A stretch of DNA of 64,000 nucleotides from an uncultured Lentisphaerales bacterium (GCA_943788985.1 CALSSJ010000004.1:1-64000), one strand, 5' to 3'; positions 1 to 64,000 are shown, counted from the first letter of the stretch. A program made the numbers.

Positions 1-3000
1 AAGCCCGCAAGGCCGCTCTGCGCGGTTGAAAACGCAGCAGTATAATCCCTGCGATGTCCGCAGATCGGGCCTAGCACTGGGAGCGCCGGGTTCATCCGGC
101 AAAGACGACTCGTTCAGGTTCTGTCTGGAGCAGGACGAGCAGGAGCCTCCTCGAATGCCGGATTAACCCGGCGCTCCCAGACTCGGTCTAGAGCCCCGTC
201 GCAATCATTTGCCAGCAGGCTGCGGCTGCGCTCCTCCTGCTTTGATCTTCGCAATCGCCTTCCAGATGTCGGCGGTCCGCCAAACCGGCTCCTTTAGGCG
301 CGCATCCCAAATTGCCAAGCCGACTGACTCATCTGCAATAATCCAGCGGAGGTGTTTCATGGCGGGCGCGCCCTGCCAGGCGGCTTTGTGGCTGGCCATG
401 CCAAGCGCAAGCTTCGCGTGGTGCTCTCCAGCGGCAGCTTTCAGGAAGTCGTAGCCTCGCCACCCGGTGCCTCCTGCGCCAGTTTCTGAGTAGCCCATCA
501 CGTGAAGACCGTCAAGATGTGGCAACAGCGCCGGCCACCAGGTCTGGTTCGGGACATGCCATTGGTGGGAAAACGTGTCGAGGGTCAATTCCTTGCCCTT
601 GGCCTGGAGGCGTTCCGACAACTCCTTGATGAATAGGACGAAAGCTTCCTTTGAAGCGTCGAGCTTACCATTGCCCTCGAGGTCTATGTCTACGCCATCG
701 AGTTGCAGGAGCACGGTCTCACTAACCAGCGCTTCTACAAACGCGGCCCGATTGGTCTCGAAGGCCGACGTTGCCAAGTCCCAGTCCCAGCCAGCGGCTG
801 TCCCATTATAGACGCAAAGCATGACCCGAATGCCATGCGTCTCGCCCCACTGGCGAAATTTGGAAATCGTTGCCTCGGTGATTGGTGCGAATCTCGAGAC
901 CACTTTAAGCCCACCTTCTGCGGTGGGGTTCCAGAACTGCAGGCCCAAGTGGGTCAATCCGTCCTTCATGCCAACGCCGTTGAAGGACTCGTTCAAGCGC
1001 TCCATGCAAGCGTCCACCGCATAGGGTGGCACCCAAGACATCACACGTCGATCTTGGATCCGTTCCTCTGCTCCGGCCATGCCGACCGCAAGGAGAGTGA
1101 CTATGGCTAGCAGCACCAACTGGCGCTGAGACTTTGACCGAAAAATTAGGAACATAAATATACTACACACCGAAAACACACTCATTTTCCGTCCTCACTC
1201 TTCATACGATGGCATAAACTAGAAAACCGCCAAAGCATATAGCGATGAGTCCAGCAACGCGACCATACGTTTTTTGCAGGCTCAGCGCCCAAGCAATGAA
1301 TCGCTTAAAATTATTTCGGCCAATGCCAGCGAACGTGATCACGGCGACTATGGCGAGCCAACCAATCACGTCCATTGTTCTTGGAAATCTAGAAATGCCA
1401 GCCGAGTGAATAAGCAGCGCACCCACAACTCGCCTCGCCCCGATGGCTAAGACTTGCAAGCCTAGCTCTTCTGAGTTCCTCCTAAGCACTCCGAATACAA
1501 TGTCCGGATTTACGATTATTGCGACTCCCGCAATGAGTGTCAGCACTCCGAATAGAAGCAATGCAGCGGCTATTTGTGATTCGTCGTAGGGTAGCACGTC
1601 CAGCATCAGGCATGCCGTACAATAACCAGCTCACGTTCCCCATTGATGTCAAGACGTCAGCGGCATTCACTTGTGGCGCTTGCTTAGCGGGCACACTCTT
1701 GATGAGGTCCGAGCAGCGCCTGCATCGTGGCACATCTGTAAACAACTTGGCAGTCACAGCAAGATCGTCTTACTGTTCTCGTCTCGACAGTGTGGTGCAA
1801 CCACAGACGACGGCGGCGGCCGGCCTCTTGGTCCGAACCTCGGAAGACCTTCGACAGCGAGCGATCAACAATGTACACTTCGCAAAAGATGGCAGTTTTT
1901 CGGTTGCCTGACGGTCTATGGCACGTCGTTTGCGACTGGCTATTGGATCTGTGGCGAGATCGTTGTGCTGCACCGAGTTACTTCCCGTCATCGCTGTAGG
2001 CGCTGAATTGGAATGCCGGCCAGGTGGGCCGGGTGCGGGCGCTGCGCATGATATTCTCTAATTTCTGGGCAATCTCCGGAAACTCCGCTGCCAGGTTCTT
2101 TTTCTCGCTGATGTCCTGCTCGATATCATAGAGTTGTGGGCACGCACAAAGTCGAGCATGCGATCCGCAATAAGCTGTGGCGGATACTGTTCACCGGTCC
2201 GTTTGCAGAGATTTCCGGCAAGCTCGCGAATCCCGTCGTTGTCCTCGAGATAGGTGGGGTAAAGGTTGTGCGCATTGCGTTGGCAGTTGTAGCCATAGAA
2301 GTGATCAAACCCCTGCCGAAGCGGATCCCCCGTGCTCCCCTGTGCTCCCCTGTGCTCCGAGCCCCCATTTACCAAAACAACCGGTCGTCTCCCCCCGGTC
2401 CTTGAATGCTTCGGCCACCGTGCGGATGCCCTTGGCCAGCGGAAGCTGCCCGCCAAAGCGAGTTGGGCTGGGATTCTTGACTTCCTGATTATCACGAGCG
2501 AAGGCGTGCCCACCATGCATCCCGGTCAGCAGGTTGCAGCGCGCCGGCCCATACACGGGGGAACCAGAGTAGTACTGCGTGAGGCGCATCCCTTCACCGG
2601 CGAGCTGATCAATGTGCGGCGTTTGGATCTTCTTCTGACCGTAGCAGCCCAACTCCTGCCAGCCCAAGTCATCGGCCATGATAAACACGATGTTGGGGGC
2701 CTGTTCCGCCGCGCTGGCGGCACAGGCCGTCGCCACGGTGATTCCCAAGAAAAGAACGATTCCAGACAGGGTGACTTTCTGATTGCTGACCATGATTTTC
2801 CTTGTCTTCCAGTGCTGGAATGCGACGATAGTATCTGTGGTGTCTCGGAGCCTGCGGCCCTTTACGTGCCTTGAAACCTACCGCTGCTTCTTTATCAGAA
2901 CGACCCCGTTAGAGTCCTTTCCGATGTCACCGTAGACCTGGGCCTTGATCTTGAACGAGGCGCCGGTCTCGTAATTCGCCACTTTAATTGTGTAGGTGTT

Positions 3001-63000: not shown

Positions 63001-64000
63001 GACCAGGTTGCGGACTACGCAGCCCGCAAGGGCATCCCCCTAGCGCAAGCTCGCCGCTGGCTCGCCCCCAATCTGGCGTAAGAATCTCCCGCAAACACGC
63101 AGAGAAGAAGGTGCCCGCTAAGAACGCGAGCCGACCTCCAGGGAGCCGGGCTCCCTGCAAGGGGGCAGCGAAGCGGCAAATCGCGCGAAAGAAGAGCTAG
63201 TGCAACTCCTGCTCTAAATCAATCATCAAATAAGGTACTTTCGCGTGTTTAGCGGGCTATTCCTTCGGGGGAATCATCTTGGTGGCAGGTAAGTTCTGAA
63301 GTCTATTTCGGCGCTGAGCGGGCCGTAACGGCCAGCTCTAATCCATGCCTGCACAATCTACGGATCACTTGCCCATCGCCTGACCATGCTCCGGCAGCGC
63401 CGCCCCCCTCCGGACTCTTTGCGTTCTCTGCGTTCTTTCGCGGCCATTCTTCCTCGAAATGACTCCCCCTCCGGACTCTTTGCGTTCTCTGCGTTCTTTC
63501 GCGGCCATTCTTCCTCGAAATGACTCCCCCCCCCTGTGGTGCATGACGCAGCCAACAACCAAACGTGGGAGATCCCCCTGGCGAATGTCACCATCCTCGG
63601 TGCCCACGGCCGGTCCATCATCTACAGCAGGACGGACAGCGCTGGCAAGGCAGCCGTGTACATGGCAGAGATCGTGCTGCCTTAGGGCGTGCGCATAAAT
63701 AGAGCCGAAAGAGCGATAGGATCAACGGGGAAACAGTCTGACCACGGTAAAATAAGCTTGACCGCAGCCAGAGCCCCCGTATAGTCGCTAAACTTTCAGT
63801 GCCAGAAATCGCAGTGAAAGTCCAATTGAATTGCTGCTGGGCAGAGAAATAGAGAAGGCCCTGCAAAACAGTCTGTTGACCAGACGCGGTGACCCCGTGT
63901 GTGCTCAGCTGTTTTGCAGGGCCTTTTTGTATTCTAGCCAGGCCGCAAAACTGTCGGCCACCGGATTTAACAACCCAACACGCAGGAGGATCCCCATGAA

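What a model noticed while it worked through the whole genome (the two positions that open the first line are those of the whole stretch)
1..64000. A highly iterated 15-bp palindrome, TTGCG-RASTY-CGCAA, pervades the coding DNA of this Lentisphaeria lineage
The bipartite palindrome TGCG-N5-CGCA occurs 1749 times in the 4.58-Mb assembly (one per 2.6 kb; C4 is the densest contig, 0.72 per kb), ten times more often than the same half-sites at any other spacing; the 15-mer TTGCG-N5-CGCAA occurs 594 times against 4-14. Half of the sites have the centre RASTY (GAGTC/GACTC, AACTC/GAGTT), so the full consensus is itself a palindrome. 92% of the sites lie inside genes (1040 of 4245 genes carry at least one), on either strand, mostly phased as Ala(GCG)-x-x-Ala(GCA); they are kept at the DNA level, not by protein sequence. 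The word is patchy within the class: all five genomes of one other family of the order have it at 56-103 copies and the three remainin [...]
Evidence so far: Markov-corrected word scan found TGCGGAGT/TGCGAACTCC on top; context and consensus. Spacing series 0-11 nt: 1749 at N5 against 142-205 at all others, mirrored half-sites 199. Synonymous-codon shuffling within each gene, 10 rounds: 244 +- 11.5 expected in coding DNA against 1612 seen; 15-mer 23 +- 4 against 547; N6 control 108 against 131. Density 0.40 per kb coding, 0.26 per kb non-coding. Codon phase 1141/255/216; RASTY centre 850 of 1749 against 0.8% by chance. Order-wide pattern search: G000 594 (reversed-word control 9); five genomes of a second family 56-103 (controls 3-8); nine genomes of three other families 0-17 (controls 0-12), one of which has the reversed word AACGC-N5-GCGTT 94 ti The finding spans contig positions 1 to 69669; this window holds only 1 to 64000 of it. 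[...]
(Added by a program. Inside this text positions count along the whole contig: contig position 1 is position 1 of the stretch shown here. "Call 12" and the like, gene names such as g00115 and contig names such as C1 are that model's own, and its searches are not shown. The text may have been shortened before it was handed on; [...] marks where a part breaks off. The agent that wrote the report below was given it as the finding of a first reader that could run no searches.)

Follow-up and report, generated by a model that had tools for sequence, protein, structure and literature searches.

The report
Hyper-abundant spaced palindrome in Lentisphaeria genes
This marine bacterium and many relatives in its class have written the DNA word TTGCG-(5 bases)-CGCAA into their genes about a thousand times, changing amino acids to do so, which resembles the "self-DNA" words of Neisseria, Haemophilus and cyanobacteria, but the protein that reads it is still unknown.

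Summary
The window holds 49 TGCG-N5-CGCA sites against 3.8 expected. The genome holds 1749, against 142-205 at any other spacing. The excess lies in the DNA, not the protein: synonymous-codon shuffling gives 220 sites against 1438 seen.

New here:
- 63% of all A-[ENDK]-[FS]-A tetrapeptides use exactly the word's codons, and these peptides are 1.8-8.7 times commoner than their swapped forms.
- Sites arise by substitution, sometimes at the same codon in different families.
- In one genus they are kept between species (9/14 and 9/17, against 5/104 for controls).
- Low-GC islands lack them.
- 42 of 250 other class genomes are word-rich; 0 of 134 from the rest of the phylum are.
- The arms never change across GC 36-59%, but the centre differs by lineage, like dialects.

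No cognate protein was found. None of four methyltransferase families is present in all word-rich genomes. No Vsr was found in G000. RecC, ComEC, Lrp and a long ComEA-like protein do not track the word.

Best reading (0.4): a self-DNA word read by a symmetric dimer and spread by biased DNA exchange, like uptake sequences or HIP1.

This scan reported the same word twice before, on other pieces of this genome.

The parts
50..62 (.). site, centre ATGTC; no ORF of 150 aa or more listed over it
1520..1532 (.). site, full 15-mer, centre ACTCC
2576..2588 (.). site, centre TGAGG, in ORF 2305-2793(-), phase 1
10231..10243 (.). site, full 15-mer, centre AACTG, in the GDSL lipase gene 10222-11064(-); overlaps the next site
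10238..10250 (.). site, centre CAACC, same gene
10573..10585 (.). site, full 15-mer, RASTY centre AACTC, GDSL lipase gene, phase 2
11026..11038 (.). site, centre CAGAT, GDSL lipase gene, phase 2
11388..11400 (.). site, full 15-mer, RASTY AACTC, in ORF 10824-11735(-)
11696..11708 (.). site, centre ATCTC, in ORF 10824-11735(-)
12153..12165 (.). site, full 15-mer, RASTY AACTT, glycosyltransferase-2 gene 11748-13865(-)
13017..13029 (.). site, centre AGGAT, same gene
13440..13452 (.). site, RASTY AAGTT, same gene
13609..13621 (.). site, full 15-mer, RASTY AACTT, same gene, phase 1
14895..14907 (.). site, RASTY GACTC, VWA/VIT gene 14721-16682(-)
15162..15174 (.). site, full 15-mer, RASTY GAGTC, same gene
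15381..15393 (.). site, RASTY AAGTT, same gene
18652..18664 (.). site, centre ATCAT, in ORF 18317-19150(+)
27215..27227 (.). site, centre GAAGG, in ORF 26978-27442(+), phase 0
28075..28087 (.). site, full 15-mer, RASTY AACTC, AAA_3/CN-hydrolase ORF 27431-29098(-), phase 0
28153..28165 (.). site, full 15-mer, RASTY AACTC, same ORF, phase 0
29995..30007 (.). site, RASTY AAGTT, DUF4159 gene 29443-31092(-)
30237..30249 (.). site, centre AACCC, same gene
31856..31868 (.). site, centre AATAA, HEAT-repeat gene 31109-31948(-)
36009..36021 (.). site, full 15-mer, centre GACCT, DUF2851 gene 35341-36702(+)
39184..39196 (.). site, RASTY AACTC, AMP-binding enzyme ORF 38236-39741(-); 28 bp from the next site
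39212..39224 (.). site, RASTY GAGTT, same ORF
39569..39581 (.). site, full 15-mer, centre AAGTA, PreP/M16 peptidase gene 39475-42444(+), phase 1
39912..39924 (.). site, centre GTGTT, PreP gene
40197..40209 (.). site, centre GTCTT, PreP gene
41127..41139 (.). site, centre ATGAT, PreP gene
41726..41738 (.). site, full 15-mer, RASTY GAGTT, PreP gene, phase 1
41799..41811 (.). site, centre CTTGC, PreP gene
42315..42327 (.). site, RASTY GACTT, PreP gene; 30 bp from the next site
42345..42357 (.). site, full 15-mer, RASTY GAGTT, PreP gene
43556..43568 (.). site, full 15-mer, RASTY AACTT, ABC transporter gene 42444-44303(+)
44588..44600 (.). site, RASTY GAGTC, aldehyde dehydrogenase gene 44307-45674(+)
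45026..45038 (.). site, centre GACCT, same gene
46939..46951 (.). site, RASTY GACTT, in ORF 46816-47346(-)
52487..52499 (.). site, RASTY AACTC, TPR gene 51689-53296(-)
52575..52587 (.). site, centre CCAGT, same gene, phase 1
54141..54153 (.). site, centre AACGG, DNA polymerase III alpha gene 53297-56842(-), phase 1
58853..58865 (.). site, RASTY GAGTC, in ORF 58459-59349(-); 40 bp from the next site
58893..58905 (.). site, RASTY GAGTC, same ORF
59762..59774 (.). site, full 15-mer, centre CACTC, methionine synthase MetH gene 59320-63081(+), phase 1; absent from the 8 orthologs aligned at this column
60107..60119 (.). site, centre CCACG, MetH gene, phase 1
60195..60207 (.). site, centre GACGT, MetH gene, phase 2 (I-A-D-V-A); the orthologs lack the second Ala
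62218..62230 (.). site, full 15-mer, RASTY AACTC, MetH gene, phase 0; G000 reads L-C-E-L-R-N where G018 reads L-S-E-L-R-K, one base short of a site
62628..62640 (.). site, full 15-mer, RASTY GAGTT, MetH gene (L-A-E-F-A); G004 has a site at the same column
63009..63021 (.). site, centre GACTA, MetH gene (V-A-D-Y-A); G210 and G018 have a site at the same column

Best explanation
The word is a lineage-wide 'self-DNA' mark. It is a 13-15 bp two-armed site, T-TGCGR ... YCGCA-A, most likely read on double-stranded DNA by a symmetric (dimeric) protein of the Lentisphaeria. DNA that carries it is favoured in some step of DNA exchange or maintenance: uptake, recombination or protection. Alleles with the word therefore replace alleles without it, as a drive or biased conversion, possibly helped by selection.

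Shown:
- The word is made by point substitutions in resident genes.
- It fills most codon contexts that can hold it.
- It forces amino-acid changes.
- It recurs at the same codons in separate families.
- It is kept between species of one genus.
- It is missing from likely newly acquired DNA.
- The arms are fixed while the centre drifts into dialects.

Inferred: the dimeric reader, and the step at which word-bearing DNA is favoured.
For: DNA-level force:
- Codon shuffling gives 220 sites against 1438 seen, and 10 against 700 for the RASTY form.
- The Ala codon pair GCG..GCA at offset 3 occurs 1816 times against 847 expected, and is at expectation at offsets 1, 2, 4 and 5.

Near saturation and cost to the proteome:
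- 513 of 817 A-[ENDK]-[FS]-A tetrapeptides use exactly the word's codons, against 9 expected.
- AEFA occurs 173 times against AFEA 20, AESA 174 against ASEA 30, ANSA 132 against ASNA 31.

Origin by substitution and convergence: in the MetH alignment of 13 genomes no site involves an indel. G000, G210 and G018 share one column, and G000 and G004 share another.

Maintenance: G018 and G014 are 72% identical at aligned nucleotides and 49% at third codon positions. 9 of 14 and 9 of 17 sites are kept, against 5 of 104 non-site A-x-x-A windows and 8% of all phase-2 windows.

Missing from likely foreign DNA:
- In ten of the largest site-poor stretches, 2 of 31 compatible tetrapeptides are realised, against 63% genome-wide.
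- The 86-kb stretch on C12 holds a single site. It is a one-strand glycan-degradation island with 55% GC and a transposase.

Symmetric reading:
- Given one perfect half-site, the other is perfect in 760 of 2269 cases, about 1000 times expectation.
- One-off variants are enriched 4-300 times, transitions most.
- Centre counts fit a product of two half-site preferences (my arithmetic on the counts).

Dialects with fixed arms over GC 36-59%.

The behaviour matches published uptake sequences: raised frequencies of the encoded peptides, absence from genes without homologs, and placement at poorly conserved residues (PMC2817400, abstract read). It also matches published DUS dialects (PMC3630211, search listing only).

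A phage structural module carries 6 sites in 14.6 kb.
Against: - No reader protein has been identified.
- ComEC, the DNA import channel, is not found in the G000 assembly, by HMM or by tblastn with three ComEC proteins from the class. The assembly is only 83.6% complete.
- ComEC is present in 61 of 65 panel genomes, word-rich and word-poor alike, so it does not explain the patchiness.
- No ComP_DUS match was found, but that search had no positive control.
- Sites are clustered and not evenly spread. There is an excess of 15-400 bp spacings. 911 genes carry a site against 1040 expected under Poisson.
- Natural competence of Lentisphaeria is unknown to me (recalled; not searched).
- Conservation between species could equally reflect selection for a chromosomal function, as argued for HIP1 (PMC5861425, abstract read).
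- A phage carrying the word is not what a pure uptake drive predicts, unless it is a prophage.
Confidence: 0.4

Rival explanations
1. The sites bind an abundant chromosome-organising or global DNA-binding protein (a nucleoid-associated protein, an Lrp-like octamer, or a condensin or partition loader). Selection keeps them because they shape the nucleoid.
For: - The recognition is palindromic and of dimer type.
- Sites cluster at short range, including 9 pairs 16 bp apart and 4 pairs 15 bp apart.
- Sites are conserved between species, which is the argument used for HIP1 and nucleoid structure (PMC5861425, abstract read).
- The arms are fixed across GC 36-59%.
- 15-bp palindromic boxes with TTG...CAA ends and an AT-rich centre are typical of Lrp/FFRP proteins (recalled, not tested).
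Against: - 63% of all compatible codon contexts are filled, pairs lie back to back, and roughly 600 extra tetrapeptides exist. This is more than a structural role should need.
- Truly non-coding DNA is not preferred.
- The Lrp/AsnC family is present in 65 of 65 genomes, word-rich and word-poor. By eye, an alignment of 21 orthologs shows no residue that splits them by word; no formal test was done.
- G004 is word-rich, yet its only match is a 93-aa frame.
Confidence: 0.2
2. The word results from biased very-short-patch-type repair tied to a DNA methyltransferase that marks it. This is Elhai's model for HIP1.
For: - HIP words track cognate methyltransferases in cyanobacteria (PMC4390886, abstract seen in a search listing).
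- Methylated HIP1 boosts transformation (bioRxiv 10.1101/2024.09.10.611283, abstract read).
- The arms-plus-spacer layout resembles targets of type I and IIB methyltransferases (recalled).
Against: No Vsr (PF03852) and no Dam (PF02086) were found in G000.

Each of four methyltransferase families is missing from many word-rich panel genomes:
- PF02384: missing in 7 of 34, including f4 0/5.
- PF00145: missing in 16 of 34, including G018, G026, G124 and G210.
- PF01555: missing in 10 of 35, including G000 and g18 0/3.
- PF02086: missing in 22 of 34, including f9 0/6 word-rich genomes and f4 0/5.

No one-off variant of the word is depleted, as a repair substrate should be.

The only type I HsdM in G000 is in frameshifted pieces inside a site-free stretch.
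Confidence: 0.12
3. The word is a Chi-like signal that tames a host nuclease, so that DNA carrying it survives double-strand-end processing while foreign DNA is destroyed.
For: - Islands lack the word.
- A phage module carries it at host density.
- G000 has two RecC-like genes.
- HIP1 has been suggested to act partly like Chi (bioRxiv 10.1101/2024.09.10.611283, abstract read).
Against: - RecC is found in 18 of 34 word-rich and 19 of 30 word-poor panel genomes, and in 0 of 5 genomes of genus g87, which hold 172-374 copies each.
- The asymmetric centre is only weakly tied to GC skew: 125/92 against 95/112. Known Chi sites are short and oriented (recalled).
- AddAB was not tested.
Confidence: 0.1
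4. The word is a dispersed mobile repeat (REP/MITE-like), or a by-product of a repeated peptide motif.
For: It is palindromic and present in high copy number.
Against: - No flank is conserved beyond the 15 bp.
- There are no indels at sites in ortholog alignments.
- Sites lie in frame inside ordinary housekeeping genes.
- Codon shuffling removes the excess.
- The same centres dominate in all three codon phases.
Confidence: 0.02

Closest known systems
DNA uptake sequences: USS of Pasteurellaceae and DUS of Neisseriaceae
   Same: - Hundreds to thousands of copies, about one per 1-3 kb, mostly made by substitution inside genes.
- They raise the frequency of the peptides they encode.
- They are absent from genes without homologs.
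- They sit at poorly conserved residues (PMC2817400, abstract read).
- They have lineage dialects (PMC3630211, search listing only).

Here the matching results are: peptides 1.8-8.7 times commoner than swapped forms, empty islands, sites at variable columns of MetH, and dialects.
   Different: - USS and DUS are asymmetric and contiguous. This word is a two-armed palindrome with a 5-base centre.
- The receptor is unknown here. There was no ComP_DUS hit, but that search had no positive control.
- ComEC is not found in the G000 assembly.
- Competence of the group is not known.
- Sites are clustered and not evenly spaced.
HIP1 (GCGATCGC) and alternate highly iterated palindromes of cyanobacteria
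   Same: - A palindrome that is hyper-abundant within genes across a large clade, with exceptions and alternate forms (PMC4390886, abstract seen in a search listing).
- Sites are conserved between species (PMC5861425, abstract read; here).
- HIP1 is now proposed as an uptake or recombination signal (PMC13756078 and bioRxiv 10.1101/2024.09.10.611283, abstracts read).
   Different: - HIP1 is 8 contiguous bases. This word is 13-15 bases with a variable centre.
- HIP words come with cognate methyltransferases. Here none of four methyltransferase families is present in all word-rich genomes.
- The 10-90 kb periodicity of HIP1 could not be tested on contigs.
Recognition sites of type I and type IIB restriction-modification enzymes
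   Same: Two short specific arms separated by a spacer of fixed length. In family f9 the centre is nearly free, as in such sites.
   Different: - Such sites are not known to be over-represented (recalled).
- The N6_Mtase family is absent from 7 of 34 word-rich genomes.
- In G000 and in f25 the centre is also specified.
Chi sites
   Same: A self-marking short word that is absent from foreign DNA.
   Different: - Chi is short, oriented and read by RecBCD or AddAB (recalled).
- This word is symmetric and barely oriented.
- RecC does not track it.

Membership tests
DNA uptake sequences (USS/DUS) | A short word present hundreds to thousands of times, far above chance, in coding and non-coding DNA | tested here: met
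   1749 copies against 142-205 at other spacings. At 0, 1, 2 and 3 mismatches to the 15-mer consensus there are 380, 600, 630 and 778 copies, against 0, 1, 30 and 357 for the reversed control.
DNA uptake sequences (USS/DUS) | Distorts the frequencies of the peptides it encodes; sits at variable residues; absent from recently acquired genes (PMC2817400, abstract read) | tested here: met
DNA uptake sequences (USS/DUS) | Competent cells take up DNA with the word in preference | not testable with these tools
   Needs uptake or transformation assays.
DNA uptake sequences (USS/DUS) | Competence machinery and a specific receptor are present (ComEC, DprA; ComP for DUS) | tested here: inconclusive
   DprA is present. 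ComEC is not found in G000, whose assembly is 83.6% complete, but is found in 61 of 65 panel genomes. ComP_DUS gave no hit, and that search had no positive control.
Highly iterated palindromes (HIP1 type) | A palindromic word hyper-abundant across a clade, mostly in genes | tested here: met
Highly iterated palindromes (HIP1 type) | A methyltransferase specific for the word, or its core, is present wherever the word is abundant (PMC4390886, abstract seen in a search listing) | tested here: not met
   PF02384, PF00145, PF01555 and PF02086 are each missing from 7, 16, 10 and 22 word-rich panel genomes. This is a family-level test; other methyltransferase classes were not searched.
Highly iterated palindromes (HIP1 type) | Sites conserved between species beyond the neutral expectation (PMC5861425, abstract read) | tested here: met
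   9/14 and 9/17 sites kept, against 5/104 for controls. One genus only, 60 ORF pairs.
Highly iterated palindromes (HIP1 type) | Periodic spacing of 10-90 kb along the chromosome | not tested
   G000 is in 48 contigs. Only short-range clustering was measured.
Chi sites | Co-occurs with its RecBCD or AddAB reader | tested here: not met
   RecC is found in 18 of 34 word-rich and 19 of 30 word-poor genomes, and in 0 of 5 genomes of g87. AddAB was not tested.
Chi sites | Orientation biased with replication | tested here: not met
   AACTC against GAGTT by GC-skew sign: 92/125 against 112/95.
Type I/IIB restriction-modification targets | Gamma-class N6-adenine methyltransferase (PF02384) present | tested here: not met
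   f4 0/5; G087 and G199 have none. In G000 only frameshifted pieces are found.
REP/MITE-type dispersed repeats | A longer conserved element, mainly between genes, inserted as a unit | tested here: not met
   No flank conservation. Only 7 of 1749 sites lie outside open frames of at least 240 nt. No indels at sites.
Lrp/AsnC (FFRP) binding boxes | An Lrp-family reader whose presence or recognition helix tracks the word | tested here: inconclusive
   The family is present in 65 of 65 genomes. By eye, the alignment of 21 orthologs shows no split by word. The resemblance of the box is recalled, not tested.

The most novel reading that the evidence does not exclude
Lentisphaeria have independently evolved a third kind of genome-wide self-recognition word, after USS/DUS and HIP1, and the first two-armed one. 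A still unknown symmetric reader, working without methylation, favours word-bearing DNA in exchange or survival so strongly that it has filled about two thirds of all compatible codon contexts and rewritten several hundred tetrapeptides. Its centre preference has diverged into dialects that could act as barriers to DNA exchange between families of the class.
Probability: 0.3. Interest if true: 0.8.

Novelty: new variant of a known kind. Interest (0 to 1): 0.65.

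Why it matters
Hyper-abundant words are rare natural records of a sequence-specific process acting on a whole genome. 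Only a few are understood (USS, DUS, Chi), and HIP1 is still debated after 30 years.

This one is useful for four reasons:
- It is long and information-rich.
- Its arms are fixed while its centre varies.
- It occurs over a GC range of 36-59%.
- It shows clean within-family contrasts between word-rich and word-poor genera in f9, f16, f24 and f29.

The word also serves as a practical marker. It separates native from recently acquired DNA, and could flag mis-binned contigs in Lentisphaeria metagenome bins.

Tried and rejected
Candidate machinery tested by co-distribution over a panel of 34 word-rich and 30 word-poor class genomes, with G000 added in some calls. None tracked the word:
- ComEC: 61 of 65 genomes.
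- N6_Mtase, C5 methylase, N4/N6 methylase (word-rich genomes only) and Dam.
- RecC.
- Lrp/AsnC: 65 of 65 genomes.
- The 565-aa ComEA-like protein of G000, which has an HHH_3 domain at its C-terminus. Its N-terminal part matches word-poor genomes of the same order (G007, G020, G012, G028) as well as word-rich ones.

A second, long ComEC paralogue (930-1270 aa) appeared only in 10 word-rich genomes (f4, f8, f19, f25). It is absent from f9, f29 and G000, so it is not a general correlate.

Search for closer relatives of G000: none in the same family or genus.

Alternative words in word-poor genomes: 100 kb each of G027, G002, G106 and G060 showed only tandem repeats.

Viral contigs: of 60 IMG/VR loci holding the exact 15-mer, 44 hold nothing else and only one (L070) is rich.

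It was dominated by chance and unrelated repeats, and three Lentisphaeria or Lentisphaera-labelled MAG records were among the rows. It is not a usable census.

Population data: the four runs laid are about 99.7-99.9% identical to the window. None of the 40 listed differences lies in a site or creates one, and only 0.5 were expected, so there is no power. 18 further differences were not shown.

RNA-hairpin reading: not supported. On the sense strand, GAGTT (which would allow a G-U pair) is barely commoner than AACTC, 180 against 157.

Literature: searches for 'Lentisphaera' with 'palindrom' and for 'ttgcg', 'cgcaa' and 'palindrom' listed no description of this word among the 12 top-ranked papers each. 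There were 74 and 505 hits in all, and I read titles and abstract starts only.

Full report
**Observation.** The window has 49 matches to TGCG-N5-CGCA against 3.81 +- 1.74 in 100 dinucleotide-preserving shuffles, and none of the 100 reached 49. In the whole assembly (4.58 Mb, 48 contigs, 58.3% GC) the count is 1749 at a 5-base spacing against 142-205 at every other spacing from 0 to 15. The mirrored arms occur 199 times. The 15-mer TTGCG-N5-CGCAA occurs 594 times against 4-14. C4, the window's contig, is the densest at 0.718 per kb. The position matrix gives T-TGCG-R-A-S-T-Y-CGCA-A and nothing conserved outside these 15 bases, so this is a word and not a longer repeat element. Within 0, 1, 2 and 3 mismatches of the consensus there are 380, 600, 630 and 778 copies, against 0, 1, 30 and 357 for the reversed control. 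Window 39001-49000 is held in contigs of 20 public marine and estuary runs from 11 studies, so the word is not an artefact of this assembly.

**The excess is in the DNA, not the protein.** I used my own ORF-based gene calls (3090 genes, 79% of the genome). 1436 sites lie in genes, in codon phases 1004/233/199, mostly as xxT GCG nnn nnC GCA. Ten rounds of synonymous-codon shuffling within genes give 220 +- 12 sites against 1438 seen. The RASTY form gives 10 against 700, and the N6 control 93 against 110. The Ala codon pair GCG..GCA is at expectation at offsets 1, 2, 4 and 5, but at offset 3 it occurs 1816 times against 847. The same centres lead in all three phases. Sites are spread evenly along genes, and the asymmetric centre is only weakly tied to GC skew: 125/92 against 95/112. 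Only 7 of the 1749 sites lack a spanning open frame of at least 240 nt.

**Strength of the force.** Of 817 tetrapeptides A-[E/N/D/K]-[F/S]-A in the predicted proteome, 513 (63%) are written with exactly the word's codons, against 9 expected from codon usage. These peptides are themselves inflated: AEFA 173 against AFEA 20, AESA 174 against ASEA 30, ANSA 132 against ASNA 31. The eight sum to 817 against 214 for the swapped forms. So most of these sites required amino-acid replacements. This effect is far larger than the roughly two-fold rise reported for uptake-sequence peptides (PMC2817400, abstract read).

**Reading of the site.** Given one perfect half-site, the partner is perfect in 760 of 2269 cases, about 1000 times expectation. 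Every one-off variant is also enriched, 4-300 times, with transitions most enriched, and none is depleted.

**How sites arise.** I aligned MetH (window 59320-63081, six sites) with 12 orthologs from word-rich and word-poor genomes.
- No site involves an indel.
- Most sites are private to one lineage.
- They lie at variable columns.
- Some required a residue change. G000 reads L-C-E-L-R-N where G018 reads L-S-E-L-R-K, one base short of a site.
- Separate families hit the same column twice: G000, G210 and G018 at V-A-D-Y-A, and G000 and G004 at another.

**Are sites kept?** Within genus g18, G018 and G014 were compared over 60 reciprocal-best ORF pairs. Aligned nucleotides are 72% identical and third codon positions 49%. 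9 of 14 G018 sites and 9 of 17 G014 sites have a site at the same aligned place in the partner. The controls are 5 of 104 non-site A-x-x-A windows and 8% of all phase-2 windows. In kept sites the arms are identical while the centre differs at 0.78 of 5 positions on average (examples).

**Heterogeneity within the genome.** Sites are over-dispersed. There is an excess of 15-400 bp spacings, and 33 gaps exceed 12.8 kb against 12.8 expected. Nine pairs lie 16 bp apart and four lie 15 bp apart. 911 genes carry a site against 1040 expected under Poisson. Density rises with local GC, from 1.2 to 7 per 10 kb, and with GC3, from 0 to 0.64 per kb. The realised fraction of compatible tetrapeptides rises from 0.40 to 0.73 across GC3 classes. 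In ten of the largest site-poor stretches only 2 of 31 are realised. The largest such stretch, 86 kb at the start of C12, holds a single site. It is a 48-gene, almost entirely one-strand island of sulfatases, fucosidases and GH20, GH95 and GH78-type enzymes, with a DDE transposase and 55% GC. This looks like slow accumulation in resident DNA and absence from newer arrivals, as reported for uptake sequences (PMC2817400, abstract read).

**Spread.**
- Of 250 other genomes of the class, 42 hold at least 40 copies of the 15-mer. Their reversed-word controls are at most 25. They fall in 16 families.
- The three largest families (f6, f7, f11) are at background, except G070 with 45 copies.
- There are sharp contrasts inside families:
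  - f9: genera g15 and g18 hold 216-712 copies against 3-6 in g21.
  - f16: 283 against 5 and 11.
  - f24: 131 against 7 and 1.
  - f29: 446 and 123 against 14 and 6.
- None of 134 genomes from the rest of the phylum exceeds 25 copies.
- G000 has no relative in its own family or genus among those held.

**Dialects.** The share of 15-mers with an RASTY centre differs widely by lineage:

| Genome | RASTY share of 15-mers |
|---|---|
| G000 | 380/594 |
| G004 | 133/185 |
| G111 | 183/283 |
| G087 | 100/173 |
| G038 | 70/140 |
| G093 | 68/152 |
| G051 | 24/103 |
| G210 | 80/446 |
| G215 | 47/374 |
| G026 | 60/712 |
| G124 | 11/365 |

Sampled DNA shows what replaces it:
- G124 (36% GC): 51 sites in 160 kb against 0-2 at other spacings. 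The centre is A-W-W-T-T, with A in 100% of sites at the centre's first base and T in 94% at its last.
- G215: the same A and T at those two positions.
- G018 (40% GC): 39 sites in 200 kb against 0-2 at other spacings, with a nearly free centre.

So the invariant part is T-TGCG(R) ... (Y)CGCA-A, held from 36 to 59% GC. This argues for one conserved reader whose centre preference drifts.

A generic scan for all 4-Nk-4 palindromes finds only this word and its sub-words in G000, G018 and G124. In 100 kb each of four word-poor genomes it finds only tandem repeats. The 'reversed word' of G048 is one fixed 15-mer with an asymmetric centre in 36 of the 50 places listed, several at contig ends. It is a repeat element and not an analogue of the word.

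I tested co-distribution over 34 word-rich and 30 word-poor genomes.
- ComEC is nearly universal, 61 of 65. It is not found in G000 by HMM or by tblastn, in an assembly that is 83.6% complete.
- DprA is present in G000.
- G000 has no Vsr and no Dam. It has one intact C5 methylase, and a type I HsdM only in frameshifted pieces inside a site-free stretch.
- Each of four methyltransferase families is missing from many word-rich genomes:
  - PF02384: 7 of 34.
  - PF00145: 16 of 34.
  - PF01555: 10 of 35.
  - PF02086: 22 of 34.
- The gaps differ by lineage. G018 and G026 have only PF02384. The five f4 genomes have only PF01555. G199 has only PF00145 and PF02086. A single methylation system therefore cannot explain the common arms.
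- RecC is found in 18 of 34 word-rich and 19 of 30 word-poor genomes.
- Lrp/AsnC is found in 65 of 65 genomes, and by eye the ortholog alignment shows no split by word.
- The long ComEA-like protein of G000 has N-terminal matches in word-poor genomes of the same order.

**Phage.** Of 60 viral contigs with the exact commonest 15-mer, 44 hold only that chance match. One, L070, holds 6 sites in 14.6 kb with G000-type centres, inside a terminase-portal-major head-neck module. This is one case. It may be a prophage.

**Interpretation.** Four features point to a force that acts on every potential site, that is a drive or biased conversion, and not to selection for a certain number of binding sites:
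- near saturation of compatible codon contexts;
- amino-acid cost;
- convergent gains in separate families;
- back-to-back pairs.

The half-site statistics point to a symmetric reader on duplex DNA. Absence from islands and the dialects match the behaviour of uptake sequences. Conservation between species matches HIP1. I therefore rank the readings as follows:
- a self-DNA word favoured in DNA exchange or survival: 0.4;
- a structural or nucleoid-protein site: 0.2;
- methylation-linked repair bias: 0.12;
- a Chi-like signal: 0.1.

The step at which the word acts is inferred, not shown.

**Novelty.** My paper searches found no description of this word (the top 12 listings of each were read). 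It is a new variant of a known kind of feature. The same word was reported twice before by this scan, on other pieces of this genome (e1-2874891, e1-7777564). The additions here are:
- the class-wide and phylum-wide map, with contrasts inside families;
- the dialects;
- the saturation and peptide figures;
- the between-species conservation test;
- the negative co-distribution tests.

Noticed in passing
G000 contig C12:1-86172 (outside the window): An 86-kb, 48-gene, almost entirely one-strand island of sulfatases, fucosidases, GH20, GH95 and rhamnosidase enzymes and exo/endo-phosphatases, with one DDE transposase and 55% GC. It holds a single copy of the word.
   Followed up: partly
G000 contigs C9, C35, C37: Three contigs (110 kb together) hold 2, 4 and 3 sites, 0.07-0.09 per kb against 0.38 genome-wide. 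They are either foreign or plasmid-like DNA or mis-binned contigs. C9 carries one of the two RecC-like genes.
   Followed up: no
window 47974-49182 (+): A 402-aa ORF joins complete sigma-70 regions 1.2, 2, 3 and 4 to a C-terminal domain of the RNA polymerase alpha subunit (PF03118, residues 311-368). This is an unusual fusion.
   Followed up: no
window 27431-29098 (-): A 555-aa ORF joins a MoxR-type AAA_3 ATPase domain (residues 2-132) to a carbon-nitrogen hydrolase domain (292-519). It could be a true fusion or two genes read through.
   Followed up: no
G042:C31, G036:C166, G087:C209, G004:C192, G233:C217, G152:C141, G124:C21, G051:C375, G166:C343, G024:C43: A second, long ComEC-like paralogue (open frames of 930-1270 aa) appears only in word-rich genomes of f4, f8, f19 and f25, and in none of the 30 word-poor panel genomes. 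It is absent from the other word-rich families.
   Followed up: partly
G048 (f3), e.g. L277: A dispersed hairpin repeat, the 15-mer AACGCCTTCAGCGTT, accounts for 36 of the 50 listed places of the 'reversed word'. Several lie at contig ends.
   Followed up: partly
G000:C36:36244-38483: Two tandem type I HsdM-like genes. The second is broken into four frames. They lie inside a 17-kb stretch without the word.
   Followed up: no
L070 (IMG/VR contig, 14.6 kb held): A phage head and packaging module (terminase large subunit, portal, major head protein, neck) carries 6 copies of the word with G000-type centres.
   Followed up: partly
G000:C31, locus L241 1414-3111 (-): A ComEA-like protein of at least 565 aa. 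Only the last 80 or so residues match a known family (HHH_3). The roughly 480-aa N-terminal part is shared within the order.
   Followed up: partly
G027:C1 about 1,039,370-1,039,560 and G106:C15 about 385,850-388,800: G027 has a 9-bp tandem array (unit TATACGTCC). G106 has about 20 tandem 147-bp units inside what looks like a repeat-domain gene.
   Followed up: no
window 39001-59000: The organism is widespread. The stretch is held at 0.65-0.96 of its sampled words in 20 marine and estuary metagenome runs from 11 studies, with only about 0.1-0.3% differences in the four runs laid.
   Followed up: partly
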